Positions 1,255 to 37,296 of a stretch of DNA of 64,000 nucleotides are shown here, in pieces. Under the pieces are notes generated by a model that saw only the letters and a program-made list of their open reading frames with translations, was not told where the DNA came from and did no database searches. A program made the position numbers and the translations under genes. Source of the stretch: Bilabrum cf. latius (lineage: Eukaryota); contig OZ237739.1 of assembly GCA_965178125.1 (NCBI GenBank), positions 620,001-684,000 of the forward strand, in the 5' to 3' direction. Positions within the stretch are counted from its first letter, which is position 1, and the number at the start of each line of letters is the position of its first letter.

Positions 1255-2811
1255 ATGCCCAGGAAAAGTAGGTCTTCAATTGCTTCGGAAGATGAAAGCG
1301 ACAATGATTCTGGCGACAGTTTGAGTGACGTGATAGAAGATGTGGAAGATATTACCAGCGCAAGCCGGGGAGCCTTGCGGAAGGGTGGAGCCGACGGCGT
1401 TCAAATAGGCTCAATCCTGCAGAGAGAGCAAGCGTTAGCATCGCGAGAGGCCGGCCTAACACATCGCGAAAAGGCGCTGGCATCTCGTGAAGCCGCCCTG
1501 GCTCGCGCCCAGGCTGCCATGAAGCTGCGGGAGAAATCACTGCTTGAGCTATTGCAACAGAAGGACCTGGTTCTGTCACCTTCCAGAAAGCGTAAGCTGG
1601 TGGATGATGTTGAACTTGTCGACGGGACTGCCTTATTCGGTACGGATGATGAGGATAGCAGCTACGGTGCGGTGTCGTCGCCAAGTGCAGCCTCAGCAGC
1701 AGCCCGCGGTGGCAGCGGGAGAGGTCGAGGGCGAGGTCGAGGCCGAGGGCGAGGTCGCGGTAGGGGAAGAGGGCGTGGTGGAGCAATTGCACCCACCGCC
1801 AGCCTTGGTAGCAGCGAGGGTAGCCCGCAGCCAGCTGAAGCCAGCACCAAGCTGGGCAGCAGCCGGGGACGAGGGAGGGGCAGGGGCAGAGGCAGGGGTC
1901 GCGGGCGAGGAGTCGCATCTAGTGCGTCTAGCGGGTCCACGAAATCGGCAACACCCATGTCGCCCAGGGCCAAGAGCCCTGGCCAGGCCAAGGGTGGGCC
2001 GAGGTCGCCTGCGGCAGTCGCAGGCAGGAAACGAAGCCGGGGCACGAGCTCAGCCTCCGCATCAACGAAAGCAGTTGCGCAGTAGCAGTCGTTCCAAGAG
2101 GCATCGTCCCAGCCCAGCACTAGGCGTCGGAGGGGGGAGGCAGGCGCGATCGATGCCGCGGCCAAGTCAGCACCACCTCCTGCAGTCCTCACAGCCATTC
2201 AGGGCTATGTGCCCACCAAGTACTCCATGATGCTCCTCGAGCAGGTGCTCCGGGGCGAGCCCGTGTACTGGCTCTCCGACCACGACAACCGAGTAGTGGT
2301 TGAGGTGCCTCGCAAATCCACGAACAGTCTGGACCGGAAGAACAAGGCAGTTGCATGCAGGGAGGCCTCGGGAGACGGGTGGCTGGTGAGCACGTTTAGC
2401 CGCATGTACCAGCTGGGTAAGAACGAGGGCGACGGCATGGCCACCCGGGAACAAACGGACCAACTGAAAGAAATGTTCTGGAAGGGTCGCAAGGGCAAGA
2501 CCGACTTCGGCTCTATGCTGCAGCATTACTCCACAAGCGAGCCGAATGCACTCACTGCATCAGCGGCTGCGTCGGCCAGTAGCAGCAGCAGCTCGTCCTC
2601 TTCTGCGAAGAAGACGAAGTCTGCTTCTGTCGCCAAGGCTGCCAGGGCCGCCAAGGCCTCCAAGAGTCCATCTCGGGCCAAGTCGGGCAGGGCTACTAGT
2701 GCAGCAGATCATGAGACGGGGAGGGCGGGGCAGTTCTCTCCAGCAGCCGCCATGGAGGCGGCCGTGCAGGCGGTCAAAGAGGCAGCTGCAAGCACCCCGT
2801 TGAGCAGCTGA
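1255..2811 (+). CDS. Novel-domain family protein 1 (~518 aa): acidic N-terminus, coiled coil, KRK motif, GR dipeptide tracts, one C-terminal copy of the GxPVYW...ACR...WLVSTF domain
   Basis: ORFs 1198..2085 and 2209..2811 are in one frame joined by a single TAG in CAG-TAG-CAG context; ATG at 1255 (MPRKSR), ends TGA. Confidence 0.85.
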
Positions 2812-2930
2812 ATCTGAGGGGCGGCATGATTGCTATCGCGAGTCATTTTCCTTGGTCAAGACTAGTCATTTCAACTTGCAAGTTGGTCACTTCAACATCC
2901 ATATTCAACTCACTGATTAGAATGCTGGCT

Positions 2931-5900
2931 TCAAAACTCCAGACTGGCTGAATCGGGCCGCGCACCTGATTCACTAGCACCCTCGGCAATCGAACCTAGG
3001 CAGGGCTCAAGAGCAGCACCAGGGTCAGAGGCGTTGCTGCTGCGTGCTGGTGAGCCGGCTCTAACATTAGTAGCTTCCCAGCATGCTGCTCCCAGTGATT
3101 GTAGCGCAGACTGCCCGCCTGCCATCTCAAACGCCGCAACGCTTCCCGGTGATGAAGAAGAGGCCGATGAAGATGATGATTGCAGTGGTGATACATTCCA
3201 GTACAGACCTCTCTCAGAGGCCTTGGAGCGGCCCAGATCTCGAGTCGCGGCCCCACCAGCGGTCGCTGTGCTGGTGGTACTCTGCTTTCCCACCACCGGA
3301 GTGGCAGCTCCATGCCCACCTGCTGCATGCGCAGCATCTTTCACTTCATCGCTAGCAAGGTCAGGGCTATCACTCGTGACAGCAGCCCTCATAGGTTCGG
3401 TATCCTTCACAAACATGCGCTCCAGGATCATCGCGGTGACCCGGCTGCCGCCACTCGCGCGGTTGGCCCACAGAAGATGCCGCATGCTTGTCACGAGGAC
3501 CAGCAACTTCTTTCCTTCTGGATTTGAATGATAGCACGCCAGCGGTTGGCCGAGCTGCGTGCGCGTCAACTCCTTAACCCTCCGTCGAGCCTTGCTCTGT
3601 TCAGAGACGTGCCAGAACACGGGGGTACCCTGTATCATCTGGTCAGCCACATGTATGCACCTCTACTGCAAGTCATGCGTCAGGTTGAATGCAGGGGGGC
3701 CGCTATCGAGGACTCGTGCTATCTCGAGTAAAGAGCGCCTTCTTTTCCTGCCGACAATCCAGTTGAATCCCCTTGTGCGGCCACGGCTGTCCACGCTTGC
3801 TGTGCGGCGGGCTGTGGTAGTCCTGGTCGATTGAACCCCCTTTGCTCCAACGACTGACGTTGGAGACCTGGGAATTTCGCTGCCTGGAAATTTCAGAGCG
3901 GCAGCAGGTCGACCTCCACCTTCGTTGCCAGAGAGGGCTGGTGGGCGACGCTGCTGTGTTTCGATTACGACGCTCTCGCATGACTCTCGAGGCCGCACGC
4001 TCGAACTGCAGTCATCTCCTGTAGCAAGCTTCTTCTCTGTGAAACAGATCGGGTCTGATACTTCCGTAGTTTGTCGGGTATACTTGAATCGAACGCTTCC
4101 AAACCTGGGACGGCTAGGGCTAAAGTAGTCGTGATAAGGCTCGTTGCTGGTAGCCCAGAAGCGCTTCTCTATGATGGCCCATGGAACAACTGACTCGCCC
4201 TTCAGCTCATTTATGTTGCGAAACATCTCAGTGAATGTACCGACGACCCACTCGTCAGATATTTCGCACCAGCATGCGATGGGACTGACCACCGCATCGT
4301 TCCACCAGTGCAGCGAGCGGGGTCGGACGGTGGCAACGTCTCCAGTATCGGGGTCCATTGCAACACAGGGTGCACCGTCCGCAATAAGTGCTGCAAGGAC
4401 ATCGGGCAGCTTTGAGCTTCCTTGGGATAGGGTCTCTCGCAGCCCACTGGTGGTGCCGGCAGTGCTGCTGCAGCCCACTGTCAGCACCTCCTTCCGCAGC
4501 CTGGACTACAAGGAGCCCGGCTGTCCAATATTGCTCGCTGGAGATACCAGCTGCACGACCCGCTTAAACGTAGGCAAGTCGATGCGTTCGTCCCCAAACG
4601 CGGCACAGATAGAGCCCACTGTGCTTACCAGCCAGTGCTGTCTCTGCTCACTCAAGCAAGCGAACCGAACGGGAGCTTCGCCTTCAGCAACTTTGGAAAA
4701 CCACGCAGCTTCCCCATTCCGCAAGCACACCAGCGGAGCACCATGCAGGATAGACTTCGCGGTTGCGGCGGAATTTATGTGTAGATCGTTCATGTCTGCA
4801 CAGACCATCGCATATGCCGTCAACGTTGGCTGCCCGTGCGGCAGGCCTGCAGTGACACTGCCTCTTGGTTCGATGGGATCTCTGTAGTAAATCTTACGAA
4901 TGCGATCAAGGCCACGTGAAACACATGAACTCATCAGCTGAAGGTTGGACAGCCGTTCAAGCTCAGGGAAGCTGCTGACGACCCAGCGGTGCGTGATCGG
5001 GCACCGGCAAGCGACCGGAGCCGACTCGGTCATCAGGGCACATGACTCATCGATCGAATTCGCAGGAACTTCAGCCCAGCTTCGGATGCTTGCGTGATAT
5101 TGCATCAGCTTGCAGCCTCGTCCGGCACGTGCCGCCGTTTCTACTGCTGCCAACACTGCGTTGCTGCTGGTGGTCCTTGCGGTGGCCGCCCACTGCCAGC
5201 TCGTGACCAGCCCTCTGATCTGTGTAAACTTGAGTGACACCGGCTCACCTTTGGGGGCTGAGTACAGCCGATGAATGTGCGTGGCAACGAGGAGGGTTCC
5301 TTCCGCAGACGTGATGTGCGTGCCGCTCTCGAAGATGGTCGACAGCGGACCGCGGACCCACTCGTGCTCGTCCTGGTCGGATGGAATGCGGCACGCCACC
5401 ACAAGGCCTGGCGGCAGTGGGAAGTCCAGCTGCCCGAACCGAACAACCTCTAAGCCTCCATCCGGCAGGCACGCAAAGCAGCGCTCCCCCCGCGCTATCG
5501 CTGCCCCCATCGAGAGGATGTCCTCTCGCGACTGCACGGCTCTTGCTTCGTCTGGAGGAGGGGGGAGTGCGCCGGGGCCGATGGGCTTGAGAGCAGACTC
5601 GAGCAGATTGAATGCAGCGGACGGAACGAACGCTTCGTCTGGCCACTCGGGCTTGCATTTCCCGTAGAGATCCACCACTGTGTTCCAGGCTTGGTGGCAG
5701 TCCGTCTTTGAAGCAGCCTCGCCCATGCTGGCAAACGAGGAGACGATCCACGCAGCGGTCTCGTGGGAAAAACAAGCAATTCGTCGAAGCAGCTTGGCGG
5801 GAGCTATGCCCCACTCGATGGAGAATTTTGGCACCATCTTCGCCACGGGCGGGCCTGCTTGGTCCCCCCCGCCAGCACCAGAGGCGGCCGCGGATGAGCC

Positions 5901-6059
5901 ACCGGCCGAGGCGTCCCGAGCAGGCTCCAGCCAATAGGCTGGGCGCCCTTGTGCAAGTAATGCCATGCATAGTTTCGCCCTTTCGCAAGATACTTCCGGG
6001 TGCTCTTCTGTAACCGAGGGCTAGGCACGCAGCAGTGCGCGGGTTGCTCGATCTTGCAT
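2931..6059 (-). CDS. Novel-domain family protein 2 (>=1042 aa) with six tandem divergent domain copies; 5' end uncertain
   Basis: ORFs 6021..6224, 4506..5966, 3663..4487 and 2931..3650 share a frame and are separated only by TAG (6021, 4506, 3663); ends TGA at 2931. The frame is open to 6242; first ATG at 6059, and an upstream exon is possible. Confidence 0.8.
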
Positions 6060-17622: not shown

Positions 17623-20600
17623 TCACTGCTATCCACCGCCAGTCGTGGCGCCCTGGCCCAGGCTGGAGCTGGCCGGGCTGCCCCCTCTTGCACCCCCCTT
17701 CGAGCCCGACTTGCTCACACTCCGCTTCAAGAGGCTGTTTGGCTCCCCACCTGGTGGGGCCGCAGGCGATGCAGACGCGTCCCTAGCGGCGAAGCCAGAC
17801 ACCTTCACCGAAGAAACCGCCAAGCTACCGGCGGCGACCGTCTGACTGGCTGCATCGCTGTCCTTGCTGCTACCAGTCGCGCTGCTAGAAGCAGCAGCGA
17901 CAGAAATGTGTGAGGACATAGCATCCGCGTCTCCTTTCGTCATGGCTCCTTTCTCAATTTCACTCGAATTGCCTCCACTCGCTGTACCACTGCTGAAACC
18001 AGCCGCTGCAGAATCTTTCCAGCTTGGTCTTGTCATGTACGTGGATCGAACCGTTTGCACGACATGCTCTGGCAATTTCCCCGAAGCTAGGCGATTGAAA
18101 ACTTTGTGGAACGTTGTGCGCACCCAATTGCTTCCGTCAGCACTCCGGCATGCGATTGGGTCACCCTGCATGGAGTCAGGAACGAACTCGCGAGGGACAG
18201 GACTCACGGAGTCACCGCTGCGAGAGCTGCGGAAGCATGCTCCTCCTGTTGCCAGCTAGCTAGCCACTTCATCCGTGTCTGACTCGGACTCAGAGACTCG
18301 ACTCGCCGTCAAGAGGCTGGCAGGCGGTACATCAGGGTTGGACTGCTCGCCACCAGCGGATGCAGCGGCACCGCTGCCACCATTTGCCTGCCTGCTGGGT
18401 CCGTACCTCTCGTAGATGGCATTGAAGTACTTCTGGGCCAGCTTGCCTGCCTACAGTGCTGCGGGAATTCGGGTGAAAGCTGATACAAGCCACGCGCTCC
18501 CGGCAGCCGATCGGCACGCCATCGGCTTCCTTCGCAAGCGAGACACCAGCCCATTGGGTCCCAGGCGCTCGACAGAATCTGAAGCGTCCTCATAGAAGTA
18601 GACGGGCAATCCAGCTGCTACCTGCTGCGCAAACTAGACCGTGACATCGATGGGTATACTGCTTGGCATGCTGCGGATGATGCCAGCTGGAGGCATGTCC
18701 TCCCTTTCCGGGTTGGGCGGCTCAGAACTCGTGCGAGACTACTTGGAAGATGCGGCTTCAAGGGCCGCAGATTCTCGTTGCGCTGATGATGTTTCGCCAG
18801 GACTTGGTGCAGAGGACTTCAATGCAGCTGATGGCTTTGATCCGATGGAAGAATCACGGCTTCGTTTAGTTCCTAGCGCTGGGCTGCGTGCGATGTACTC
18901 ACTGTCATCCTCGGCACCAGACCCACCTACTGGCTCGATGTCGCTGTCAAGCTCTTCGAAGGAGCCCACCCGAGCTGAAGAGGCCCGCTTGCTCTGCCGA
19001 GTTGGCTATAATTGCGTTCGGCTAGCCGACGCTCCCTTGCGCCGCTTCGTGGAATCGGCACGACTGGATGGTGGCTGCTTTGGGCCAGAAACACTCTCTC
19101 GGGAACGCGATCTAGCCGTGTACATCTGTACAAGGCGAGCCAGCTATTCGCGTTCCTCGTCGGAAGCCGTTGCTCGCTTGAACTTAGAGTACACCTTGCT
19201 CAATGTGGTTACGATCCAAGCCTTCATAGACGGGCTCCAGCAGCACAAAGGAACATCGCGAGTGCTACTGACAGTCCTCAAACTGCCTGGTGCTAGCTGG
19301 GCAACACTTTTCTTGTCCTTTGACAGGCAATACACAGGCGATCCTCCAACGGACAGGGCCAAGAATTCCTTCTACACCTCTGATGCCACCACTTTGGGCG
19401 CTTCAATCAAGAGAGATAAGCACGGAAGCTTTTTAGATGCGCCTCGGGATGCCTTGGAGTCTCTCGTCGAGCCCCTCGTCCCTCCGTCGACTGAAGGATC
19501 GGATCCTGCATACGGCGACATCCCCACCTTCTGACGATTCTAGCTGACGCTGTGGCTACCACTCGCAGCAGCAGGTCTATGAATACAAGTCTACCGGAAC
19601 CGTCTCATCGTTGCCCTGGCGTCCTCTGTCGGAAGGGAGAGCTTCAGCATTTTGATGGGAGTAGACACCAGGATCCTTTTCTGGTCAAGTGATGGGCCAG
19701 CAATCGCGCGATGGTTGTCACGAGGGACATTGATTCTAAAGACCGGCGCGACCTAGCCGTCGGGCGCTGTCGGGTCTCTCCAGTACGTGCAGATACCGCT
19801 GACCATGCTCTCGAGCAGCTCTCTCGAGTCGCTTTGCTTAACAACTCTAGGCATGCTGTCGAGAGCAGCTGTAATGCCGTCTAGCATGCTCTGGCTCACG
19901 TGAAGTCGGGAGTGGAGGGGTGCCGACTTGTCGTTCGCATCGCTGCTGCTGCTGCTGCCGCTTGTACTGGTAGGCCTTGCGCTTGTACTGGTGGTGCTGC
20001 CGCCTGTCTCGCCGGCAACACCAATCTCATATACGCCCCTCACAGCCGGCGAGTCGCTTGCTCGCGGCGACAGCTAGTTCCGAGTCGTCGCAGCATCTTC
20101 TGTGCCTTGAATAGGGGCAGAATAACGAGAGGAAGAAGACGCAGAAGAAGAAACGGAGGACTTTCGAAGCCCTGCCTTGGGCTGTTCTGGTCTTGCCGTT
20201 GAATGGCTCGCCGCCTACGAGTGGCCTCGTCGCGGCGGCTCCACCCTGCGACGTTTGCCAGCACGACCAGTATCACCCAGTGAAGATGCATCCGAGGCAC
20301 TCTTCAGCATGCTTGCACGGCCTTCGCTCGGACTTGCACCTGCTCTCTGGGACGGAACTGCTAGGCCTGAGCTCGCGCTGGCAGAGCTGGACGAGGCAGC
20401 CTACCCGCGCCTCGCCAAGCTTGCATCGCCGTATTGCTCGGCCAAGTCTAGCTAAGATTGCTCTAGACGAGCGATAGCTCGATGATGAGCTCGTATCTCC
20501 TGCGTCCACTGCTACTCCAAGGCGATCGCCTAGCGACCAGCAGCCAGCTAGTCCTCTAGAAGCCGAAGGTGCTCTTGCATCCGTGCCGCGGATGCACTCT

Positions 20601-20880
20601 ATGAAATATCACCGCTATTCTAGCCAAATGACCTCGGGTTTGCACCCATAGGACTGGTCTGATCGTCAGCAGGTTGCATCATGTTAGAAGCACGCAAATT
20701 GGACCCAGCGCTTGAACTGCTCTGACGCACTCCAGATCCAAGCGGAGCCGAATGCAACGATTCTGCTACAGCTTCTCCATCATTTTGCGGCGATTCACCC
20801 TCAATCACGTCATCTCTGTCCGTGTAACGACTTAGTACGGCGTTTATCTCGGCATCCTCATCAAAATTACAGCCATCCAT
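17623..20880 (-). CDS. Novel-domain family protein 3 (~1085 aa): N-terminal coiled coil, KRRR motif, four domain copies
   Basis: ATG at 20880 (MDGCNFDEDAE); ~20 in-frame TAGs join ORFs 20620..20880, 19753..20043, 19144..19362, 18739..18969 and 17629..18207; ends GGG-Q-Q-TGA at 17623. Confidence 0.85.
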
Positions 20881-23687: not shown

Positions 23688-24416
23688 ATGGATTTGAGGC
23701 CCAAGCTCTAGTAGCTCGTGGAGATTCGAAAGCGCCACATAGCTATGCGCCAAGCGACTCTGCAGAAACGGAGAGAAGCCCTCGATGCAAGGCGCGCCAT
23801 GTTGCAGAAAGATAAGGAAACGGTACTGGGTCTGGTACGCCAGCGCGTCCCCGATGCCAGTTCTCAAGAGTCTTCAAAAGAGCGAGGCGAAGTGCAACTC
23901 GAGCAGGCTATAGAACGCGGCGAAGCCCTAGCAAAACGTGCCAGAACAGTCCCACTTCAGGTTGATCTACATTAGACGAATCCTGTGCAGTAGAAGTCTG
24001 GCGAGGAGAAGCCTGGACCGGCCTTGTTTCGGACGATTCCGCGGCTCGTGTCGAAGGACGTGTCTGCCTCAATGGTTCGACTGATTGCAGCAGGGCAGCC
24101 TGTTTATTTTTGTCCAAAGCAAGGCGGCCCAGTGGAACATGCGGACGGGAGAGTGTCTTCAGAGCAGGTTGCCTCTGCATTGGCGTGCAGGTCGGCCTCC
24201 AAATGGCTGCTGAGCACGTACGATAGAATCCGGAGACACAGGGATTCAGGCGCGTTTACTGAAGAACAGTGGCAGAAGTTCGGCGCGAGATTGCGTCCAA
24301 AAGGCGCAGCTGTCCGACGGCGGGCCAAGAAGTCGATGCAGAGCGTGGCTGGTACAGCCAGCAAGGACCCGTCCAAAAGCAGACACAGCGAGAAATCTGG
24401 CAAAGAAGTGACTTGA
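23688..24416 (+). CDS. Novel-domain family protein 4 (~242 aa), minimal member: coiled coil plus one domain copy
   Basis: ATG at 23688, MDLRPKL**LVEIRKR (tandem TAG TAG = QQ); TAGs at 23973 and ~23991 join ORFs 23718..23975 and 24024..24416; ends TGA. Confidence 0.82.
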
Positions 24417-24485
24417 AATCGCGGCAAAGCGACCATCTTATCTCACACAGCAATCAACCTGAAGTGAAGTCCCCAAATGCTCGTC

Positions 24486-26771
24486 TCACGACCGCTTCGC
24501 GGCTGCGCTCTTCGCGCTCTTCCAGTACCTCGCGACCACCTGTCTCATGTCTGCCTTGGAAATCATCCCGGCCTGCTGGGCGCGCCGTATGCACCGAAAC
24601 GAAGTCTTGATCCAGAGACCTTCGCTGCTTTTGCAGGCAATGGGGCGCTCCCTGGCCGCCTTGCTCGCTCCGAACTAGGGTACCTCAACCACTGCGTCCT
24701 CGCCCACCACACTTGGGCCGCTACTAGCAGTAGAAGGACCCGCTTTTCGCAGCCAGAAACATGGATACCCGGCCACCAATCGCTCAGCTACTGCCACGCT
24801 GTCTTCCATTGGGACGTGGTCCGGCAAGTCTGCTAACAGCTGTGCCGCTGGAAGGTCTGGGCCCTTGGCTTTGGCAGCCCCGCGGCCCTGCAGTGGCGTG
24901 CTGGTCTGCTGCTTCACAGCAGCTAACTCTGGCGCAGCAGCTGCGAGCGGCATAGACCCTGCACTGCCAGCTGCTTCTTTCCTGCTGGACGCATCAGCAC
25001 CAATGCCTGATCCGTCCAGGGTAGACACGGCTGAGCTTGGGCGCTGGCCTTCGTTTCTAGTGGTCCCGACCGCCATGCCGGCACCGATCGAGCTGTCCTG
25101 CTACTGCCCCGCGCTGGTGCGCACGACAGGGTGAGCATAAAATCGCAAGCGCACTCGATTCATGAGCTCGGTGGTGATTCTACCATCACTGGCTGCATTT
25201 GCTAGCCGGCGTAGGCTGCAGAGCATCCAGCCAGGCGACCCCAGAGGAACCCCAAAGTGTTTGGTATGCATGCTACCAGACACGGAGTGCTCTGGGACCT
25301 CCTCGAGCGTCCCATCGGAATCGCTCAGCCAATAGCACTTGCCTCCATTCGCAAGATATGAAGCAATCGCGTCATACTGAGCCGAGAATATCCTTGTCCT
25401 CTTGCCAGCCAAAAGCACTTCCTTGAGCCCCTCCAAGTCGCCCAAGGTATCGGGCACAATTGACTCTTGCACAATTTCGCTGCTTGGTATCGCGTCAACG
25501 TCGATATCAACATCGTCAGACGCCGCATCAGACTGAGCCTATTGTCCATCTGCCGCTGCATCGAGCGCTGGAACCCGTTCGTCTTGCTGGGCATCCGCTG
25601 CTGCAGAGCCTCCGAGAGACCGAACTGGAGCGCTTGCGCCGTATATGTTCCTGATTCTTTGCAAGGTGTCATTATCGATAACTTGTCTACTATGGAGTCC
25701 CTTAATTCGCTAGTAAGAGCTCACGAGCCAGGTGCCCACTGAGCTGCGGCAAGCCAGCGGCGCTGACCTAATCCGTGTCAAGCCTTGCTTCGGCTGCACC
25801 TAGTGCACCTCGCCGGACTTCTCGTCCAAGTAAAAGACGGGACGTCCAGAGGCCAGACAAAGAGCCACCTGTCGAGTCGTCTCCCGGGGCACATGCACTA
25901 CGTCCTTGCCGGATTGTCCTCCAGACGGCAGGCTCGCAAGCACGCGGGGGTCGGGCCGTTCCCTTGCTGCTGCAAGCTGGTGCTGTGGCTGCACGACTTC
26001 GATTGCATGTACAGCAAGAGCAGAGGATTTCGGGCCGGTTGCATGTCTCGGTCTCCTCGCGATCGTTTTATTTCTTGGCTTGCCTCTGCTGGACCCGGTG
26101 GGCGAAACTTGCTGCTTGGCTCGTCGGCTGGCTGACACTGGAGAGCCTGAGCTTGGCTAATCATGTGCGGGGGAATGCATCATAATAACACTTTCAGAAG
26201 AATCGCTATCAATATTTTCGACCAATTCATGGTCGATGATTTCGATGTCAGAGTCGTCAGAGCCGGTCTATTTGCGAAACTCAACGCGCCGCCGCCTAGC
26301 GGCAGGCCCTGATGTGGCCAACTGAAATTGGTCTTGTTGCTATTGGTGTGAAATTACACCGTGGCTAGCGCCAACCTGCTTCAGACTATCTCGCTTGCGC
26401 TTTTCTCCAACCTTCTTTGAAGGCAAATATTTCCTAGGAAATGAGCCTTGATCTATCGACGACTGCAGCAAATGCTAGTGCTTGCCTGTCATTATTTCAC
26501 TATCGTGGGAGTGAGGCAGTGGCTGTGCAGACTGCCCGGAGGATGAGCTCGATGCGATTGGAGCCCTACCGACTGGCAGGCCAACCTGAGCTAGCAGCGA
26601 AGCCCGAAGCTTTTGCCATCTTTGCAACTCGGCCTCAAAAGAGTCCTCATGTTGCTTCTGCACACTCTCCTCCTCCTCGAGAATCCGGGCCTGCGCTGAG
26701 TATATTGCCTCGTCTTGCTTAGCCTTTAGCTCAAGTTCTCGTAATTGCTTCAAAGTAATCATGCCTGCCAT
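24486..26771 (-). CDS. Novel-domain family protein 5 (~761 aa): coiled coil, KRKR motif, acidic tract, three domain copies
   Basis: ATG at 26771 after an upstream TAA; 9 in-frame TAGs (one in HQ*QQDQFQ) join ORFs 26475..26783, 25800..26138, 25101..25472 and 24675..25076; ends TGA at 24486. Confidence 0.85.
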
Positions 26772-26937: not shown

Positions 26938-26978
26938 TCAATCTTCATGCTTATCGTTTTCAATCAAGACGACTTCGC

Positions 26979-27009
<31 letters not shown>

Positions 27010-27646
27010 GGAAGCTGGCTACGACGCAGCACCTTGTTCCGACTCAGGCGAACTTGGTGTAGGCATTCCAGCCGGGCTCTAGCTAGCCTGCCTTGTAGTC
27101 TGTATACGAGCCCTCCCTGAGCGACGAGGACGGGTGGATGCCGAGGACTGCGGCCGTGTAAGCAGCGCAGCAGCCTGAGGCACTCCAGCTACGTGCTTGC
27201 CTATTGCTGCCACGGCCTCTTTGGCTTGTTTCTCGAAATCCATTCGACCAGCCGTCTGTTGGAACCTCTTTGACCTCCAGTACAACTTCTTAACAGTTTC
27301 ATGCGCTTCTTTATACTCTTTGCGGACCAACCTCGAGTTCTACAGCCTGCGAAATGTGACAGTGACCCACCTATCGTTGGCTCGCGACCGGACAGCGATG
27401 GGCCTTTCTTTGTCTTCCGCGCTCACACTTCCCCAAGGAACAACCTGCACAGACTCTGTACCCCCCCCTGATACTACTTGCCAGTATGCGGGAACTCCGG
27501 CAGCCAACTAATCTATTGCTTCCCGAGTGTCGGTTGGGACGGAGGGTTTGGGGATATGCGACAGCACATCCAGACCTGGCACCTCATCTGAGCGTGAAAC
27601 GCGGGGGACGGAGGTCATTGCTACGCTGTATGCACTCGATGATGAT

Positions 27647-27678
<32 letters not shown>

Positions 27679-30624
27679 TGATGATGTTGGCGCAGAAGCG
27701 CCGGCAGTCGGGGTCTTCAAAGCCGATTCGGACTAGGATCGCGCTTGTCTAGGCGATGCAGCGGAGACCGCACCCTGCCCGCGAGGCTCTGCCTGGTAGC
27801 TCATTCCATGAGAGGTCGCTGTCAAACTGCTACTGCTGCTGCTGCTGCTTTTATTGCTGCTGCCACTGCCGGCACTCGCTGTACACTACTACGAGTCCTG
27901 CTGGGCTCTGGCCAGCCGAATTCCGCGGGAGTCTGGTCCAGGACTGCTACTGTTTGCCGGCATAAGTCTGCCGCTGCTACCGCGTGCAGCAGGCTTTGAA
28001 ACATTTCGTCGCGAGGATGATTTCCGTGGAGGCATAACCTTGCTCCAGTACATGTGCCGCAACTCGTCGAACTCTGCAGCATCGACGTGATTGGCGTGTG
28101 CACCGAAGCAGATCCTCGAGAAAGTGGAAGCCAACCAGCCACCGCTTCTGTTCGGATCTCTACAAACGATAGTCTTGGTGTCACGCATAAGTCTGCTAGT
28201 GCTGTGAAGTGGCACGCGGGTCGGCCTCTTGGTGCTGTCGTCTAGCCAGTAGCAAGGCGCGCCATTCGCAAGTTCATGGCACATGGTCTTGTTGATGCCT
28301 TTGGGTACCTGTCGATCCAGATTCTCGAAAACAACCGCAAGCGGTAGGTCATGCTCATTGTTGCTGTCCTCTGCACCGCCGGAAGCTGTGCTTCGCTCAG
28401 ATGAATGGCGAATGTTTCGTGCTAAGCCAACACGAGATCGATCATTAATGCAGCCCCCATCTTCGTCGTCGTCGTCGTCATCATAATCATCATCGTTGTC
28501 GTGTTCCTCCTCACTGCCACTTGACCGGCCGCCAAGCACGGCGTCGGTCTGCTCGTGCTCAGTAGTGCTCCGACTCGGGCCCAATTCCATGTCCTCGGGC
28601 ACAGCCGAGCTTGGGAGAGAGCGAGCATTCGTACCAATCGAATTCTAAGGTGATGGGGCAGAAGAGGCGCTTCGACCTGGAGATATTGATCGCCTTGAAG
28701 ACCTGGCCCGTGCCACGCTGGCACGAGCTTCTGCATTGATGGCGCTGGCACCGGGGTCCAGATTCTCCCTTTCCGAGCCAAGCAATGCGGCAGCAATCTC
28801 TGACCTTTTACGCTCAGTGCTTTGCGCTGCAACAGTCAGATGCGACTCACTGCTGCTCGCAGATTCTTCTACTGAAGTCTTCGATGCTAAGAGAGCGCAG
28901 GTCGCTGGATCCTAAGTCGGACTCGGGCCCAAGCTGCCTTCTTCCTGCCCCTGCCGTGGAGCAGACCCACCCGATGCAACGCCAGACCCTGTCCCAGATC
29001 CAGTCACAGTCGCTGTCGACTGGCCACTCGCTGCCTGCCCCTGCCGTGGAGCAGACCCACCCGATGCAACGCCAGACCCTGTCCCAGATCCAGTCACAGT
29101 CGCTGTCGACTGGCCACTGGCTGCCTGCCCCTGCCGTGGAGCAGACCCACCCGATGCAACGCCAGACCCTGTCCCAGATCCAGTCACAGTCGCTGTCGAC
29201 TGGCCACTCGCTGCCTGCCCCTGCCGTGGAGCAGACCCACCCGATGCAACGCCAGACCCTGTCCCAGATCCAGTCACAGTCGCAGTCGACTGGCCACTGG
29301 CTGCCTGCCCCTGCCGTGGAGCACACCCACCCGATACAACGCCAGACCCTGTCCCAGATCCAGTCACAGTCGCAGTCGACTGGCCACTGGCTGCCTGCCC
29401 CTGCCGTGGAGCAGACCCACCCGATGCAACGCCAGACCCTGTCCCAGATCCAGTCACAGTCGCAGTCGACTGGCCACTCGCTGCCTGCCCCTGCCGTGGA
29501 GCAGACCCACCCGATGCAACGCCAGACCCTGTCCCAGATCCAGTCACAGTCGCTGTCGACTGGCCACTCGCTGCCTGCCCCTGCCGTGGAGCAGACCCAC
29601 CCGATGCTACGCCAGACCCTGTCCCAGATCCAGTCACAGTCACTGTCGACTGGCCACTGGCTGCCTGCCCCACAGGTCCCTAGGCCTCCACTTGAGCCGG
29701 CTAAGAAATAGGCAGCCTTTTGTTTCTGACGAAATCTAAAGTGCCAGTGCTGCTAGGCCTCAATGCAGAACCAGGTTGATGAGCTGGCCAGGGAGAATCG
29801 CGCTTCGCTTCGATTCCCAGCACGGGAATCGCAGCGCCCGGAAACTCGCGCCTAGGGCGCTTTGCAGCAGGACCAGTACTGTCTAAGATGGTGCCACCTT
29901 CTCTGTCAGCATGATTGTTAACCGGTTTGGATTGGTTTGGATGGCCGGTTGGCTTGGCTTCCGGGTAGTCGGCCGTTGCATCTCGGGTCGCAGCCACATG
30001 CTTTGCCGACTGTGTCAATGTGCTCACAACCTTGTCTCCAGCTGAAAGGGGCAAGCCATCCTGATTGGGTGCTGGATCCTCGCTGCTCTGGCGCTTCCTT
30101 TTCCCCCCGAGCCTGAGCTCATCCGTGTCGACAACAGCGAGCCCGATCTCCGCGTGGGATCCTTGAACAGGCAGCGATGCTGCCGCTTGTTGTGCAAAAG
30201 CTACGATTTCCATGTTCTGTACGGATAAGTTTGGCAATTTGGCGCTTCTCTTGCTCCCCAATCTCTGCGCTAGTGGTTGCAAGCCTTTGGCACCTGCAAG
30301 GTCCATTTCTACGCTTTGCGCTGAACTCTAAGGAAAGCCACTTCCAGATGAATCCACAAGATTCGAACCCACAGAATCAGATATACCTCGAATCGCCATA
30401 GTGTCCCTCTGTGACGCCCATGTTGCGAGACGAGCAGAAAAGAGTTTCTCTCGTTCTAGTAGACTCCTCTCCCTCTCCATTATTGCCTCCTCTCTGCTGA
30501 GCAGTGCCCTCTCTCTCATTTCTATTGCCTTATATCGCGCATCGGCGGCACTGTCCCTTGCTGGTACGTGTGCAGTGCCCTGGTCGACTCGCAATAATTT
30601 ATTAGTTGCTTCATGATGCTGCAT
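26938..30624 (-). CDS. Novel-domain family protein 6 (~1228 aa): coiled coil, KRKR motif, 8x30-aa repeat, poly-Asp/poly-Ser tracts, two domain copies
   Basis: ATG at 30624; ~12 TAGs join ORFs 30328..30639, 29701..30306, 28912..29673, 27889..28602, 27508..27720 and 27079..27330; ends DDDDDDDDDGEVVLIENDKHED-TGA. Confidence 0.85.
28944..29671. repeat. Coding minisatellite, 8 copies of a 90-bp unit (GQAASGQSTATVTGSGTGSGVASGGSAPRQ on the minus strand)
   Basis: ctgccgtggagca recurs at 28951, 29041, 29131, 29221, 29311, 29401, 29491 and 29581; few substitutions between units. Confidence 0.95.
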
Positions 30625-30744
30625 TATAGAAGTCGTCAAATTTGTTGGACGAGCAGGAAAACTGGTAGCAGCTGTCGCAAAAGAACAAAAGTTCAGCTCT
30701 TTAGGTTCAACAAAGGATTATGTCGGTATGAAAAGCAGGTCAAT

Positions 30745-32486: not shown

Positions 32487-32847
32487 CATGCTGTCTGGTA
32501 TACGCCGCGCATGATTGGTGCAGCGGATCCTCCCAGCCCACTCGTCACGGTCGCGGTCTGATCAATTCACCAGTAGACGCTACCGTAGTCCAATGGGGGC
32601 TTTAAGTCGCTTGGGCTTGCTTAGGGGACTCAGGGCCGGGCTAGCCGAGTTTGGATTTTACTTGCATGCCGTGTACGGTACTAGCTATGGGTCATATTCA
32701 GAGCTATAGTTGAGCAAGTCAAGTCGCTATCACGCTGGAGCAGGAACTGAAGCAGGACGCACCCAATCAAATGTGAGCAGCTCGAACAAACTACCTTTTT
32801 GCCTATTAATGCTCAACCATCGGGCAATTGCAGGCAGTAGGAATAGC

Positions 32848-35800
32848 TCAGACAATCAACTCTGGCAGGCCCTCAATTGCACTCGCCTCAACACTGTCGA
32901 TGCTCTGCGTGCCTGGCCAAGAGAGCGGCTCCACCGGAACAGTCAGGTCCTCTATCTCCTACACCTCATCGTCAATCTAGCCCGTAGATGAGCCGCCGCT
33001 CCAAACCCCCCTGCCCTGCCTAGCTGCGGCTTCCCGTGGGGCCTCCCAGCCAACCGAAGCAGACGCAAGCCCGTCTTCAAGCCTCCGGCTCGGCCTGCGG
33101 TCCCGCCGCGGCCGGCGCACCGACTCGACCCCATTGCCAACACCAACACGGAGGCCCATATCTGGCGCGGTGCTGCCAGCCATGAAGGCATTCGGCGCGC
33201 CAGCAGGCTCCAGTTGTGCACTTCTTGCGCGGGCCGCACCAGATCCTGCAGAAGAACTGGAGACTGCAGATGAGCTCGGGGCCGATAACGAGCTCCAACG
33301 GTGGGCTGGGGCCGACGCATGCGAGTTGAAGAAGGGGGACTACCTGGATGCGGGCGCAATGGCGGAAGCTGACACTCCTTGCGGTGGGCCCGCAGCAAAC
33401 GGAGAAGCGCCCCCAGCATTTTGCAGAGACGGCTACTTGCTGAGGAGGGCGGGACCATCGCCCGTGACTGAGGCATCCCATCCTGCCGAAGACCCATCTC
33501 CACGTGAACTGCTCGACCCAGACGAGTGGAATGGCAGGCTGCGACCAGCGGCTCTAGGAGGCGGATGGACGCTGGAAAGAGTCGCAGTTGCTTCTTGCTG
33601 CGTCGTGCTGCTCGTGCTGGCAGCGACTGGAAGCGATGACTGCGTGCGAGCTCTGCCGCTGCTGCCTGCTGCAATTCGAGCCACCGAGCTGATGCGCTTC
33701 ATTCGCCAGTATCTCCTCTTGATTGAATGGAACACTTCCTTAGATAGGTTGCCCTTGTTGCTCTACTGCTCAATGCGGGAGAACGACGATGCCACCCACC
33801 GAGACTCGGCAGAACTCCAAGCCACGACGCAGCCGCGATAGTTCGAACTTGTCAGGCTGTTCTCTTCTACCGGCAGTACTGACATTCCGGGGTCCTCGTC
33901 ACCAGAACCTTTGCAAGCGTGGTATGCAACCCCTCCTTGCGCCAGTTCCTACGCCAGAGCCAGGCTATCGGCACGACATACGCTCCTTGGCAATTCCTGC
34001 AACAAAGCAAGAGGTGGAACTTTGCAGCCTCGATCAGCACACTGTGTGCTGAAGGAATCGCCTCTTGGTCTGGATGGAAGGTGGCCTCCCTGGCCCATGG
34101 ATGCTTGCGGGCTTGCTTGGTGTCTTTGGCCGATAGCCTTGCCTCTAGCTGGATTGAGTGCGTTAGCACTGCCTCCACGTGGTCTCTCAGACCGCCCTTT
34201 TCTGTGTGGGCGATGATGCTTGCGCTGACCGGCACGCACCCACGCTGACAAAGCAGCTTGCTGCGCAATAGGCAGCGCCCCGTTCTTGAAGAGACCTCGG
34301 AGTCGAGACAGGCTTGACACGAGCCAAGTTGTACCAGACTGAGAGCGACAAGCGATTGGTGCGCTACATCTAGCCATGTTGGAAAAATAAGATCCATCAA
34401 TCTGCTTAACAGTGTTGCCGTCAGCAGACATGCCGAACACGGGCTGCCCGGCAACGAGCTGGCGATATATTCCAATCGACACCGACCCTGGGATGCGCAC
34501 ACCTGCTAAATTGCGCTGCAAAATTGATGCAGGTGGCAAGTAGCCAGGTGTATTATTCGTAGCACCGGCTGTGGAGCAGGCACCTTGGCGCGTGCTCTCA
34601 TCCTATGAGAGCTCCGCCTCAGTCTCGGCCTGGATGGCTCGCCGCCTCACCTGGAAAGTGCTACCCGTCCGTCGAATCTTGCTCGGAGGTTCGGACTAAT
34701 CTGCCTCATGATCTGACTGATAGGCATCTGCCCCGACTAGCCAGGAGCAGTAGTGTCTCACAACAGCTTCGCACTTGCGCCGCGAGGCCTCGTCCACCGA
34801 CCCATGCTTTGAGGCACGACAGAGATGGTAAAACGAGGTGACCAGCCAAGCTTCGCGGCTGGCACTGATGCAACAGACAGGCCTTCTTTCATGAAAGCGA
34901 GACACGCCCCTGATTGGGACCTCAACAACTTGGCTGCTAGTTGGGTCAATCCAGAGGCACGGTGCCCGGTTGCAGCAATGCTCGGCAAACTTGATAGACA
35001 CTGCGGGGTTTGATAACTTGATCGGTCGCTCAAGCATGAATTTTGGTGGCATGCTCGACGTTTTTCTTGAGCAGACCCACTCTACGGGGATCTCGGCACA
35101 AGATTGATGCTGCCAAAGCCTCGACCGAGCCAAGTATAGCAGCTTCTTCCCATCGGCCTGGTCCGAGTAGCATGCCAGTTCTATTCGATGCATTGATGTT
35201 ACCATCCATCCTGACCCAAGCTCTACAGCTAAAAGATCATGGGCTGTAGACCTAGAGAGGTTGTTTGGGGGTACCGGCACGACTGCTTGTTGCCCACGAT
35301 CTGATTCACGAAGGCAGTAAACCTGCGCTCCATCTGCAATCCTGCGTGCTGCAGCGCAAACCATTCCAAGTGATGTACCTTGCTGCTTATCTTTGAATAC
35401 ACTCATGGGAGGAGCCTAGTGGTCAACCTGGCTGTGCTGCTGCTCTCGTGAGGCTGTTGGCGAGGCCAGGGAGTGCACTGGGTTGGCCGGAGAGGAGGGC
35501 AGGGAACTGCTGGCATGGTGCCTTGCCTGGTCCCTCGACCCAGCTTCGCCGGACATTCGAACCAGACCACGAGATTTTTGCGCTTTTCGAAACCGTTCAA
35601 GCTTAGCTCGATAGTCCTGCCACCATTCGGGACTTCCTTCATCACGGGCACGAGCGCGAGGCACACGCGGGCTGGAAGAGTTGACCAAGAGCCTACGATG
35701 ACTGCGGCGTCTGGACCGTGGCAACTTCCACGCTTCTGTGCCATCCTCAATTTCACTGTCTTCGTCTGAGTGCGCCACCCCAGTAGACCCCTCCTCATCC

Positions 35801-37296
35801 TCATCCGCATCATCAAGATCACTAAGCATGAAAGACGCTGCTGGTGGCAGTGAGACGAGCCCGCTAGTGCTCCTGCGCTGCGATGAAGTCGTCAATGCAG
35901 CTAATGAATTTGGTGGGCTTAGTGGCGCGAACGACACTGGCGATGGCGCACCGCTGCGATTGCTCTCATTTCGCAGTAATCGAGAATCCTAGTCCACTCT
36001 AACACCCCCGGATTCGCCCCGCATGGCGACCTGCGGCGAGCCTGTAGTCTGTGTAGGACTGCGTGATCCCGACTGAGCCCCAGGAGGAACTGTCGAGGGA
36101 CTGCGTGATCCCGACTGAGCCCCAGGAGGAACTGTCGAGGATTGGTCTAGCTCCAGCTCGCAGGCGAGCTTTGCGATTTCTGACAGCGGGGAGGGCAGTG
36201 TCGGTGGCGAGCCCGAGCCAGACGTCCCTTCGCGACTCGACCTCGGGTGTCTCACTCCCGCCAGGGCCAACGAAGCCGCAATACCGAGCTGCTTCTGCAG
36301 ATTGCGGAGCGCTTCATCCCTACCCGCACCGCTTGCAGCACTTGCCGTCGCCTGCGAGCCACCACTTGCAGCCCTTGCCGTCGCCTGCGAAGGGGTGTCT
36401 CTGGTGTTGAGCTCACCCTCTCGCCTGTCCGTGCCCCTCTTGCTGCCCATGTCGTGGACACTGGCCCTGGCGGTTGGAGGCAGAGCTGCCCGTGTGGATT
36501 CGGCGAAGTCTGCAACAAGACCCTATGAACCAACTTGCTAAAGTTTCTTTGGACTGTGGCGGAGCCGCGCCGCCTAGACCTGCACTTCAGGCGGTTCTTG
36601 GCTGCGCACATTATGGCCAACAGCGCCACCACTGGCTACGGCTGACCGCTTCCTTGGATCGCCCAGCTTGTCACTGTCTGGAATATCAGGGCCTGGCGAT
36701 TTTCTGTAAATCATGTACTCCATTTCTTTTGGTTTACCAACACGATGCCTCTTTCGTCCCCTTATTGTCGCGTTGGACGAATCCTGCGCACGGGAGCTGC
36801 TTGACATGCAATCCGAGCCCAGACTTCTTCCCGATTGGTGCTGGGTATGTGCAATAACAGTTAAGGCGTCCTACTGCTCCGGTGACGCCCGACTCAATGA
36901 TCCAGCCCCCTGGTGCGTGGCGATCGATGACAGCTATAGCGCTACTTGCTCAATTGCGGTCTCCCGGGCGCTCACAGCTCGCTCTCTGGCTGCCAGGCTG
37001 CGTCGCATGTGAATAAGCGCTTTTTCCTACAGATCAAGCGCCTTCTATCGCAATGATAATGACGTGAGAAGTCCGGTCCGAAACGTATCAAGCAGTCCCT
37101 GCGGTGCAGTGTCCCCACTCTCGCTCTATTTTACATATTTCTGAGCAGTAGCTCCACGGCTGATATCAACTCTCTTCTATAAGGAGTCAGTTATGCTTAT
37201 GCGCCTACCATTCCGGGAAAGTAGACCTCTTTGCTCGGGTGCATCGCAAACCTGCTGACCTGACTCGGAGTGAGGGGGTTTATAGGGCACAGACAT
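32848..37296 (-). CDS. Novel-domain family protein 7 (~1482 aa): coiled coil, RGRKRHR motif, long disordered region, four domain copies
   Basis: ATG at 37296 (MSVPYKPP); ~19 TAGs join ORFs 36574..36807, 35989..36450, 35416..35937, 34696..35406, 33949..34539, 33433..33735 and 32977..33183; ends TGA at 32848. Confidence 0.85.

What the first reader, a model, noticed from the sequence alone, without database searches (positions are those of the whole stretch)
1255..37296. Unrecognised ~80-100 aa domain repeated ~21 times in seven clustered genes
The consensus seen by eye is PP..hL..hP..hs...h...h..G.P[VCA][YF][WFC].....V..VP.......Ph AC[RW]s....W[LV]V[ST][ST]F.Rh......G.h......h...[YF]W. Examples: VLRGEPVYW..VVEVP..VACREASGDGWLVSTFSRM (~2240); VAAGLPVYF..PMACRSAAGSAWLVSAFTRI (~18600); IAAGQPVYF..LACRSASKWLLSTYDRI (~24090); LASGRPVFY..PLACRSSVGTWLVSSY (~25840); LANGAPCYW..IVCRDPNRSGGWLASTFSRI (~28260); LVAGQPVFG..PIACRSQSGTTWLVSSLSRL (~34450). 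Copies per gene are 1, 6, 4, 1, 3, 2 and 4. Copies are highly diverged in DNA but keep the motif, implying selection on a folded helix-strands-helix module. Several copies are only complete when TAG is read as Gln, so standard-code annotation would fragment the family. I cannot match it to any family I know.
Basis: partly seen in the sequence, partly recalled or inferred. Interest (0 to 1): 0.85.

Follow-up and report, generated by a model that had tools for sequence, protein, structure and literature searches.

The report
New repeated protein domain, TAG-recoded eukaryote
Seven neighbouring genes of an unidentified eukaryote that reads TAG as glutamine carry 21 very diverged copies of a roughly 100-residue folded protein module that matched no family or structure library searched here; what it does is unknown.

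Summary
With TAG read as Gln, seven ATG-to-TGA genes between 1255 and 37296 carry 1, 6, 4, 1, 3, 2 and 4 copies of a ~100-aa module. Profiles built without a gene's own copies recover 20 of 21 copies at E <= 1.1e-3; one copy is seen only by eye. DNA of the copies is unrelated (0 of 210 pairs). Protein identity is 8-32%.

AlphaFold2 gives the same confident fold for two copies, helix-2 strands-short helix-2 strands-2 helices (pLDDT 88.6 and 84.5).

Nothing known matches: Pfam, NCBIfam, PHROGs, PDB sequences, and Foldseek against PDB and BFVD (0 hits at E <= 1e-3, best TM 0.38). A scan of 1.84 billion representatives found 10 credible relatives. All are unnamed fragments of counterparts of these seven genes; one identical to the window ends exactly at a TAG.

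TAG=Gln is supported: Gln in 116 of 120 MiaB homologues at one TAG column. TAA is never in frame.

The proteins are soluble, disordered, mostly basic and carry Lys/Arg clusters. I infer a multivalent nuclear binding module, possibly for nucleic acid or chromatin. This is weakly supported. AlphaFold DB, InterPro and HHpred were not available.

The parts
1255..2811 (+). g1: 518-aa protein, one domain copy, 1 in-frame TAG
   Evidence: ORF under table 15, ATG..TGA; Pfam gives only two sub-threshold hits
2188..2508 (+). g1 domain copy 1
   Evidence: i-Evalue 1.3e-30; leave-one-gene-out 3.1e-20; AF2 model pLDDT 88.6
2931..6059 (-). g2: 1042-aa protein, six domain copies (five statistical, one by eye), 3 TAG
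   Evidence: counterpart fragments P0001, P0004, P0007, P0019
5631..5975 (-). g2 copy 1 (long Gly/Ala-rich insert between the first two strands)
   Evidence: 3e-21; 1.6e-5
5238..5549 (-). g2 copy 2, marginal
   Evidence: E 2.4 and 49; accepted only from the motif seen by eye in the translation and the alignment
4857..5183 (-). g2 copy 3
   Evidence: 2.3e-24; 3.3e-5
4521..4778 (-). g2 copy 4 (weak)
   Evidence: 3.2e-4; 1.1e-3
4125..4442 (-). g2 copy 5
   Evidence: 8e-28; 8.3e-8
3387..3677 (-). g2 copy 6 (weak; lacks the conserved Trp)
   Evidence: 0.12; 6.5e-4; alignment
17623..20880 (-). g3: 1085-aa protein, four copies, 20 TAG
19555..19863 (-). g3 copy 1 (weak)
   Evidence: 7.5e-4; 9.4e-4
19090..19410 (-). 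g3 copy 2
   Evidence: 4.2e-26; 5.4e-16
18379..18678 (-). g3 copy 3
   Evidence: 1.2e-19; 5.2e-18
18004..18312 (-). g3 copy 4
   Evidence: 5e-31; 3.9e-16
23688..24416 (+). g4: minimal 242-aa member: N-terminal helical stretch, a Lys/Arg cluster, one copy; 4 TAG
24027..24329 (+). g4 copy 1
   Evidence: 2.9e-25; 1.2e-12
24486..26771 (-). g5: 761-aa protein, three copies, 9 TAG
25608..25913 (-). g5 copy 1
   Evidence: 1e-27; 1.3e-14
25107..25403 (-). g5 copy 2
   Evidence: 1.5e-12 (not a seed); 7.2e-13
24492..24836 (-). g5 copy 3
   Evidence: 4.3e-30; 5.5e-21
26938..30624 (-). g6: 1228-aa protein, two copies, 12 TAG; also holds a 90-nt x 8.1 tandem repeat at 28944-29671
28018..28329 (-). g6 copy 1
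   Evidence: 3e-15 (not a seed); 3.6e-16
27247..27564 (-). g6 copy 2
   Evidence: 1.2e-29; 1.6e-13; AF2 model pLDDT 84.5
32848..37296 (-). g7: 1482-aa protein, four copies, 19 TAG
35083..35397 (-). g7 copy 1
   Evidence: 1.7e-23; 3.7e-8
34720..35034 (-). g7 copy 2
   Evidence: 7e-30; 6.2e-14
34198..34515 (-). g7 copy 3
   Evidence: 1.1e-27; 2.8e-14
33676..34002 (-). g7 copy 4
   Evidence: 4.6e-29; 9.7e-17

Best explanation
SHOWN. This is a genuine protein domain family of about 100 residues that matches nothing in the libraries available here. It folds as alpha-beta-beta-(short alpha)-beta-beta-alpha-alpha. It has a conserved hydrophobic core: a Gly after helix 1, then a Pro-x-Tyr/Phe-Trp strand, a Val-x-x-Val-Pro strand, a Pro-h-Ala-Cys-Arg-Ser strand, a Trp-Leu-Val-Ser/Thr-Ser/Thr-Phe strand, and a Tyr/Phe-Trp at the end of the last helix. 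A few polar positions are also conserved: Arg56, Ser57, Ser/Thr66-67 and Arg/Lys70 of the profile. The family is old. It was expanded both by gene duplication, since copy types are shared between genes, and by duplication inside g2. It sits in seven clustered genes of a eukaryote that reads TAG, but apparently not TAA, as Gln. Detectable relatives are only counterparts of these same genes in a few related, unnamed organisms.

INFERRED. The seven proteins are soluble intracellular proteins, probably nuclear. They are long Ser/Ala/Gly-rich disordered chains with Lys/Arg clusters and acidic patches. Several have an N-terminal helical, heptad-like stretch that may pair chains. The module would be the only folded unit, strung 1-6 times, so it would act as a multivalent binding module. 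My best guess for the ligand is nucleic acid or chromatin.

CONFIDENCE BY PART. About 0.9 that it is a real folded family absent from Pfam and PDB. About 0.35 that the ligand is nucleic acid or chromatin.
For: Reality of the family.
- 19 of 21 copies at i-Evalue < 1e-3 with the seed HMM.
- 20 of 21 at <= 1.1e-3 in leave-one-gene-out searches; best reversed control 0.064.

Fold.
- Two AF2 models from different copies and alignments: pLDDT 88.6 / pTM 0.78 and pLDDT 84.5 / pTM 0.71, with the same order of elements.

No known match.
- Pfam, NCBIfam, PHROGs.
- PDB sequence profiles, best E 0.053, to a coiled coil.
- Foldseek PDB: 0 matches at E <= 1e-3 for both models, best TM 0.33.
- Foldseek BFVD: 0 at E <= 1e-3, best TM 0.38.
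- ESM Atlas feature search: no usable hit.

Narrow distribution.
- 16 hits at E <= 1e-3 among 1,835,955,588 representatives.
- 10 are credible. They align at 63-100% identity to one of the seven genes, or at about 43% to g1 for P0005 and P0008.
- The other 6 are sums of partial matches of <= 12.7 bits to internal repeats, shown in the visible part of the output for P0012, P0013, P0015 and P0016.

Age and history.
- 0 of 210 DNA pairs are similar; protein identity 8-32%.
- In a copy tree, clades {g7c3, g5c1, g4c1, g3c3} (support 0.94) and {g7c1, g5c2} (0.88) cross genes. g2 copies 1, 2, 4 and 5 group together with g3c2 (0.81).

Protein character.
- No hydrophobic 19-mer above 1.28 on the Kyte-Doolittle scale and polar N-termini, against 2.42 for the FG-GAP membrane protein next door.
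- Lys/Arg clusters in all 7 proteins; 17 of 21 copies have pI >= 8; linkers are rich in Ser, Ala and Gly.
Against: Function is not shown by anything.
- The conserved positions are mostly core residues.
- Basic pI is not special to the module. Linker pI is 9.0-10.9 in 5 of 7 proteins, and 4 of 21 copies are neutral or acidic.
- No DNA- or RNA-binding fold was recognised.
- The shared N-terminal helices are seen by eye only. blastp on domain-masked proteins and phmmer on N-terminal parts found no significant similarity between the seven.
- The nuclear-signal reading is a crude regular expression.

Identity to the counterparts is barely higher inside the module than outside: P0001 338/412 against 81/103, P0002 81/106 against 50/66, P0009 57/90 against 37/55. 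So stronger constraint on the module than on the linkers is not demonstrated.

Confidence: 0.6

Rival explanations
1. The module is a protein-protein interaction or scaffold unit. It might bind a peptide motif or another copy of itself, inside disordered coiled-coil proteins of a cytoplasmic or nuclear structure, with no nucleic-acid role.
For: Conserved positions are mainly hydrophobic. The proteins have helical N-termini and long disordered linkers. 4 of 21 copies are not basic. The weak Foldseek neighbours include peptide-binding small barrels such as Tudor, SH3, SspB and EVH1.
Against: Those Foldseek hits are all non-significant (E >= 0.25, TM <= 0.33). No partner is known. Lys/Arg clusters and mostly basic modules fit a nuclear nucleic-acid role at least as well.
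Confidence: 0.3
2. The module is a very diverged, unrecognised member of a known small beta-barrel superfamily (Sm/WYL, Tudor/chromo-barrel, SH3-like) decorated with extra helices. It would then be new as a family but not as a fold.
For: Both models give weak hits to this type. WYL proteins (DriD, BrxR, PafBC), Tudor domains (TDRD3, SGF29) and retroviral integrase C-terminal domains recur in the top 50; SspB appears in both lists and Hfq in the second. A WYL protein also appears in the BFVD list.
Against: Every such hit has E >= 0.25, probability <= 0.23 and TM <= 0.28. The module has four strands, not five. No copy gave a weak Pfam hit to WYL, Tudor or SH3 at E <= 10.
Confidence: 0.2
3. The cluster descends from a mobile element or virus, and the module is a mobile-element protein domain.
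For: Seven paralogues in both orientations lie within 36 kb. The family is absent from named proteins of other eukaryotes.
Against: There are no transposase, integrase, reverse-transcriptase or capsid matches in the proteins. BFVD and PHROGs gave no match. There is no DNA similarity between copies. Terminal repeats flanking the genes were not searched for. Counterparts of all seven genes exist in related organisms. The in-frame TAG use is the same as in the housekeeping MiaB gene.
Confidence: 0.04
4. Artefact: the similarity reflects compositional bias or non-coding sequence, and the ORFs are not genes.
For: Low-complexity linkers make up about half of each protein. There are no expression data.
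Against: ORFs of 0.7-4.4 kb are open only in one frame once TAG is sense. Reversed-sequence controls score >= 0.064, against 1e-8 to 1e-21 for most copies. The AF2 models are confident. Counterparts are conserved at 63-85% identity elsewhere.
Confidence: 0.02

Closest known systems
Arrays of a small DNA-binding domain in long low-complexity nuclear proteins, e.g. apicomplexan ApiAP2 factors (comparison recalled from general knowledge, not from a call)
   Same: The architecture is alike: 1-6 copies of a small, mostly basic folded module separated by long disordered Ser/Ala/Gly-rich linkers, in a lineage-restricted expanded gene family.
   Different: There is no sequence relation. AP2 is not among the Pfam hits of any of the 20 copies scanned, even at E <= 10. 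The predicted fold, a helix plus four strands plus helices, is not the three-strand-plus-helix AP2 fold, and no AP2 structure is in the top 50 Foldseek hits. DNA binding is not shown here.
Small beta-barrel ligand-binding domains: WYL (Sm-like), Tudor/chromo-barrel, SH3-like integrase C-terminal domain
   Same: They are the only recurring theme among the weak Foldseek neighbours of both models. Size is similar, and they also occur in arrays, as Tudor domains do.
   Different: All matches are non-significant (E >= 0.25, TM <= 0.28). This module has four strands and three flanking helices. It lacks an aromatic cage or a WYL motif detectable by Pfam.
NCBI genetic code 15 (TAG = Gln, TAA and TGA stop). 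It is reported for Protocruzia tuzeti, some phyllopharyngean ciliates and the fornicate Iotanema spirale (PMC11687900, Discussion passages read).
   Same: The window has 127 in-frame TAG and 0 in-frame TAA in 15 ORFs, which end in TGA (11) or TAA (4). A TAG lies at the column that is Gln in 116 of 120 MiaB homologues.
   Different: The window is GC-rich (55-68%). It is a 64-kb stretch with large genes that show no sign of introns. It encodes a MiaB/CDK5RAP1-type enzyme whose best named relatives are stramenopiles and green algae at about 50-57% identity. None of this suggests a ciliate or a fornicate, but the organism was not identified.

Membership tests
Any Pfam-A family (24,736 models) | hmmscan score at or above the family's gathering threshold | tested here: not met
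   Seven whole proteins at E <= 0.01: none above threshold. g1 has two sub-threshold hits (17.5 bits against a cutoff of 32, and 16.9 against 35) outside or across low-complexity sequence. 20 copies scanned singly at E <= 10: 5 families, each hit by 1 copy, best E 0.023.
Any protein with a solved structure (PDB), by sequence | Profile hmmsearch E <= 1e-3 | tested here: not met
   Best E 0.053 (A1) and 0.16 (A2), both to a bicaudal-D coiled coil.
Any fold in PDB or BFVD, by structure | Foldseek E <= 1e-3 or TM >= 0.5 | tested here: not met
   0 matches at E <= 1e-3 in all three searches. Best TM 0.33 (PDB) and 0.38 (BFVD). AlphaFold DB was not available.
WYL / Sm-like barrel | Five-stranded bent barrel after an N-terminal helix; match to the Pfam WYL model | tested here: not met
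   DriD, BrxR and PafBC hits have E 0.44-2.3 and TM 0.20-0.25. No WYL hit in Pfam. The models have four strands.
Tudor / SH3-like barrels | Five-stranded barrel, aromatic cage | tested here: not met
   TDRD3, SGF29 and integrase C-terminal-domain hits have E 0.36-2.3 and TM 0.17-0.23. No Pfam hit.
AP2/ERF (ApiAP2-like) | Match to the Pfam AP2 model; three-stranded sheet packed on one helix | tested here: not met
   AP2 is absent from the Pfam hits at E <= 10 and from the top 50 Foldseek hits.
The new family itself | A profile built from the other genes recovers a gene's copies above controls | tested here: met
   20 of 21 copies at <= 1.1e-3. Best reversed control 0.064; best off-family ORF 4.6e-4.
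NCBI genetic code 15 | TAG read as Gln | tested here: met
   TAG at residue 137 of the MiaB-like protein lies in a column that is Q in 116 of 120 homologues. A second TAG column is E 97, K 20, Q 3. Two further TAG columns are variable and two lie in gapped regions. The PDB alignment shows the same Q.
NCBI genetic code 15 | TAA and TGA remain stops | tested here: inconclusive
   0 in-frame TAA against 127 TAG and 172 CAA in 15 ORFs. 11 ORFs end in TGA and 4 in TAA. Two of the four TAA-ended ORFs are doubtful genes. There is no tRNA gene in the window and no release-factor or proteome data.

The most novel reading that the evidence does not exclude
The module is a new fold that serves as the sequence-specific DNA- or chromatin-binding domain of a lineage-specific regulator family. 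That would be an independent invention comparable to ApiAP2 in apicomplexans, in a eukaryotic lineage with a TAG-only (TAA retained) Gln reassignment that has escaped standard-code annotation.
Probability: 0.12. Interest if true: 0.75.

Novelty: categorically new. Interest (0 to 1): 0.5.

Why it matters
If the negative searches hold up against AlphaFold DB and HHpred, this is a confidently folding domain with no recognisable relative. It is confined to one poorly sampled eukaryotic lineage and is invisible to standard pipelines, because every gene carrying it contains in-frame TAG codons.

It is a concrete example of protein 'dark matter' hidden by a variant genetic code. In the public protein sets searched it exists only as unnamed fragments broken at TAG.

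It gives a small, tractable target. The 242-aa g4 protein, or a single 100-aa module, could be used for structure determination and ligand discovery.

Orphan lineage-specific domains are common in protists, however. Without a function the general significance is moderate.

Tried and rejected
1. Taxonomic placement.
- No tRNA or Rfam family lies in the window.
I did not resend it in another form.
- MiaB homologues gave only a long-branched, poorly supported position. The nearest named relatives are a brown alga and oomycetes; support is 0.15-0.71.
- The organism stays unidentified.
- Amoebophrya sp. ex K. veneficum was considered and rejected. The passages read in PMC12005148 call it AT-rich with all three stops ambiguous.

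2. A second shared module in the seven proteins. blastp on domain-masked proteins gave no hit at E <= 1e-2. phmmer on the N-terminal parts gave only low-complexity self and reversed hits. The 'REKAL..SRE.A' helices are therefore a by-eye observation only.

3. The six weak hits of the big search (P0011-P0016). They were rejected as sums of partial matches to internal repeats. One is a named hypothetical protein of Entomortierella parvispora.

4. The word-indexed search with the alignment found only 1 protein (P0006) among 891 candidates. It added nothing.

5. ORF 48814-49035 (-) scores 4.6e-4 to 1.1e-2 with the profiles. It is a 74-aa ORF antisense to the giant + strand gene. I treated it as chance and did not test it further.

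7. Literature. No search for the domain itself was possible, since it has no name to search for. I therefore make no claim that it is absent from print.

8. Supplementary files were not consulted.
Full report
CONTEXT AND CODE.

The window is GC-rich, 55-68% in 4-kb windows. Under the standard code it is a patchwork of short ORFs. With TAG read as sense it resolves into large ORFs with no sign of introns, on both strands. These include ORFs of 3405 and 5058 codons.

In 15 such ORFs there are 127 in-frame TAG and no in-frame TAA, compared with 172 CAA and 493 CAG. 11 ORFs end in TGA and 4 in TAA.

The content is eukaryotic: a WW domain, GT61, an RXYLT1/GT47-like transferase, an FG-GAP giant protein and a MiaB/CDK5RAP1-type radical-SAM enzyme.

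In the MiaB-like gene one TAG sits in a motif column that is Gln in the solved bacterial enzyme and in 116 of 120 homologues. A second TAG column is Glu in 97, Lys in 20 and Gln in 3. The other four TAG positions lie in variable or gapped columns.

So TAG = Gln is well supported, and TAA seems to remain a stop.

No tRNA or Rfam family is in the window. The organism was not identified. The best named MiaB relatives are stramenopiles and some green algae at about 50-57% identity, and a quick tree gave no supported position.

THE OBSERVATION.

Seven ORFs that start with ATG and end with TGA carry the module:
- g1 1255-2811 (+)
- g2 2931-6059 (-)
- g3 17623-20880 (-)
- g4 23688-24416 (+)
- g5 24486-26771 (-)
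- g6 26938-30624 (-)
- g7 32848-37296 (-)

A profile built from 14 seeds picked by a loose regular expression was searched against all 703 ORFs of 50 aa or more. It found 19 copies at i-Evalue < 1e-3 and two weaker ones, all in these seven ORFs. Several of the copies found were not seeds.

In leave-one-gene-out tests against the ORFs plus their reversed versions (1406 sequences), 20 of 21 copies were recovered at <= 1.1e-3, most of them at 1e-8 to 1e-21. The best reversed sequence scored 0.064.

One copy, g2 copy 2, fails statistically (E = 49) and is accepted by eye only. Three others (g2 copies 4 and 6, g3 copy 1) score no better than the best off-family ORF. That ORF is a 74-aa antisense ORF at 48814-49035, at 4.6e-4 to 1.1e-2, which I regard as chance.

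The DNA of the copies is unrelated: 0 of 210 pairs match by blastn at E < 1e-3. Protein identity over the match columns is 8-32%, median 19%. Nine of 21 copies contain in-frame TAG.

ANATOMY OF THE MODULE.

The 103-column profile has these conserved positions:
- Gly in 20 of 21 copies after the first helix.
- Pro (14), then Val/Cys, then Tyr/Phe (17 together) and Trp (9).
- Val (17) followed by Pro (10).
- Pro (13), an aliphatic residue, Ala (16), Cys (16), Arg (10), Ser (13).
- Trp in 19 of 21, followed by Leu/Val/Ile, Val, Ser/Thr, Ser/Thr (19) and Phe (11).
- Arg/Lys (13).
- Near the end, Tyr/Phe (16) and Trp (7), followed by a basic tail.

AlphaFold2 on the 20-copy alignment gave pLDDT 88.6 and pTM 0.78 for the g1 copy. 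A 27-row alignment that includes counterpart fragments gave pLDDT 84.5 and pTM 0.71 for g6 copy 2.

Both models have the same order of elements: a helix, two strands, a short helix, two strands and two helices.

WHAT IT IS NOT.

- Pfam finds nothing in the seven proteins except two sub-threshold low-complexity hits in g1.
- Pfam finds nothing recurrent in 20 single copies at E <= 10.
- NCBIfam and PHROGs are negative.
- Profile searches of PDB sequences give only a coiled-coil at E 0.053 or worse.
- Foldseek gives 0 matches at E <= 1e-3 for model 1 against PDB and BFVD, and for model 2 against PDB. The best TM-scores are 0.33 and 0.38.
- The only recurring theme among the weak hits is small barrels: WYL proteins, Tudor domains and integrase C-terminal domains, with SspB in both PDB lists and Hfq in the second. 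All are far from significance.
- The ESM Atlas feature search gave no usable hit.
- AlphaFold DB, InterPro beyond Pfam, and HHpred could not be run.

DISTRIBUTION.

An exhaustive HMMER scan of 1.84 billion cluster representatives gave 16 hits at E <= 1e-3. That set also holds NCBI, UniRef, EukProt and MMETSP proteins, as one search shows.

Ten hits are credible, and each aligns best to one of the seven genes:
- g2: P0001, P0004, P0007
- g6: P0002
- g5: P0003 (117 of 118 aligned positions identical)
- g4: P0010 (93 of 94 aligned positions identical)
- g7: P0006
- g3: P0009
- g1: P0005 and P0008, at about 43% identity

All are unnamed records. They are fragments. P0003 ends exactly at a window TAG. 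Several pieces of the g2 counterpart come from a contig of 7254 bases.

The other six hits are additive partial matches to internal repeats of unrelated proteins.

So the family is visible only in this organism and a few relatives. No extra paralogue beyond the seven was seen. The fragmentation and the 50% clustering of the library limit that statement.

HISTORY.

A tree of the 21 copies is short and weakly resolved. It puts copies of different genes together: {g7c3, g5c1, g4c1, g3c3} with support 0.94, and {g7c1, g5c2} with 0.88. Four g2 copies cluster with each other and with g3c2 (0.81).

This fits duplication of multi-module genes, together with expansion inside g2, long ago.

THE PROTEINS AND THE LIKELY MECHANISM.

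None of the seven has a hydrophobic segment typical of a signal peptide or membrane span. The maximum 19-residue Kyte-Doolittle mean is 1.28, against 2.42 in the neighbouring FG-GAP protein.

All seven have Lys/Arg clusters. Linkers are 13-20% Ser and 12-18% Ala, except in the short g4 protein. 17 of 21 modules have pI >= 8.

By eye, g1, g4, g6 and g7 start with heptad-like Arg/Glu/Ala/Leu helices. This similarity is not statistically detectable.

From this I infer soluble, probably nuclear, largely disordered proteins in which the module is the only folded unit. It would act as a multivalent binder. Nucleic acid or chromatin is my preferred ligand (about 0.35) and a protein or peptide ligand is the main rival (about 0.3).

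The evidence is weak:
- basic charge is shared by the linkers;
- conserved positions are mostly core;
- conservation against counterparts is only slightly higher inside the module than outside.

COMPARISON AND VERDICT.

In architecture the family resembles arrays of small DNA-binding or reader domains in low-complexity nuclear proteins. ApiAP2 is the analogy I recall. Every membership test run here failed, so I file it under no known family.

On the available evidence it is a new domain family. It may be a new fold, pending AlphaFold DB and HHpred searches, and its function is unknown.

The interest is moderate. Orphan domains are common in protists. This one folds confidently, is repeated 21 times in one cluster, and is hidden from standard annotation by the code change.

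Papers. PMC11687900 and PMC12005148 were read as passages in find mode. All other papers were seen as search listings only.

Noticed in passing
whole window; e.g. 58767-61076 (-): The code looks like TAG-only reassignment to Gln with TAA kept as a stop. There are 127 in-frame TAG against 0 in-frame TAA in 15 ORFs, and Gln in 116 of 120 homologues at one TAG column. This is in a GC-rich eukaryote whose large genes show no sign of introns. The passages read in PMC11687900 list this code only for some ciliates and Iotanema. Whether this organism's code is already described is unknown.
   Followed up: partly
38622-53798 (+): A giant 5058-codon ORF holds a 1488-nt tandem repeat, 7 copies at 99-100% identity between 38979 and 48206. 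Pfam found nothing in the first 1000 residues. The C-terminal part is hydrophobic and gives a weak, sub-threshold TRP-channel hit.
   Followed up: partly
7245-17462 (+): A 3405-codon ORF with 27 in-frame TAG lies between g2 and g3. It has 14 FG-GAP stretches, Ser-Pro linkers and a hydrophobic segment near residue 2797.
   Followed up: no
28944-29671 (inside g6): A 90-nt tandem repeat, 8.1 copies at 97% identity, encodes a Gly/Ser/Thr/Ala-rich 30-residue unit.
   Followed up: no
48814-49035 (-): A 74-aa ORF antisense to the giant gene scores 4.6e-4 to 1.1e-2 with the domain profiles. It is probably chance, but it is the best off-family hit and comparable to the weakest accepted copies.
   Followed up: no
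21289-23472 (+): An ORF for a Glu/Lys/Arg-rich helical protein of 727 aa, with no Pfam match, lies inside the cluster just upstream of g4 on the same strand. It is in a different frame and 216 nt away, so a spliced fusion with g4 cannot be excluded.
   Followed up: no
N-terminal parts of g1, g4, g6, g7; acidic patches in g1, g5, g6, g7: By eye there are heptad-like 'RE.AL..RE.A' helices near the N-termini, and short hydrophobic runs flanked by Asp/Glu/Ser, reminiscent of SUMO-interaction motifs (a resemblance recalled, not tested). They are not detectable statistically.
   Followed up: partly
30625-32847: A 2.2-kb stretch between g6 and g7 has only short overlapping ORFs of 158-216 aa. Two of them were scanned and have no Pfam match.
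   Followed up: no
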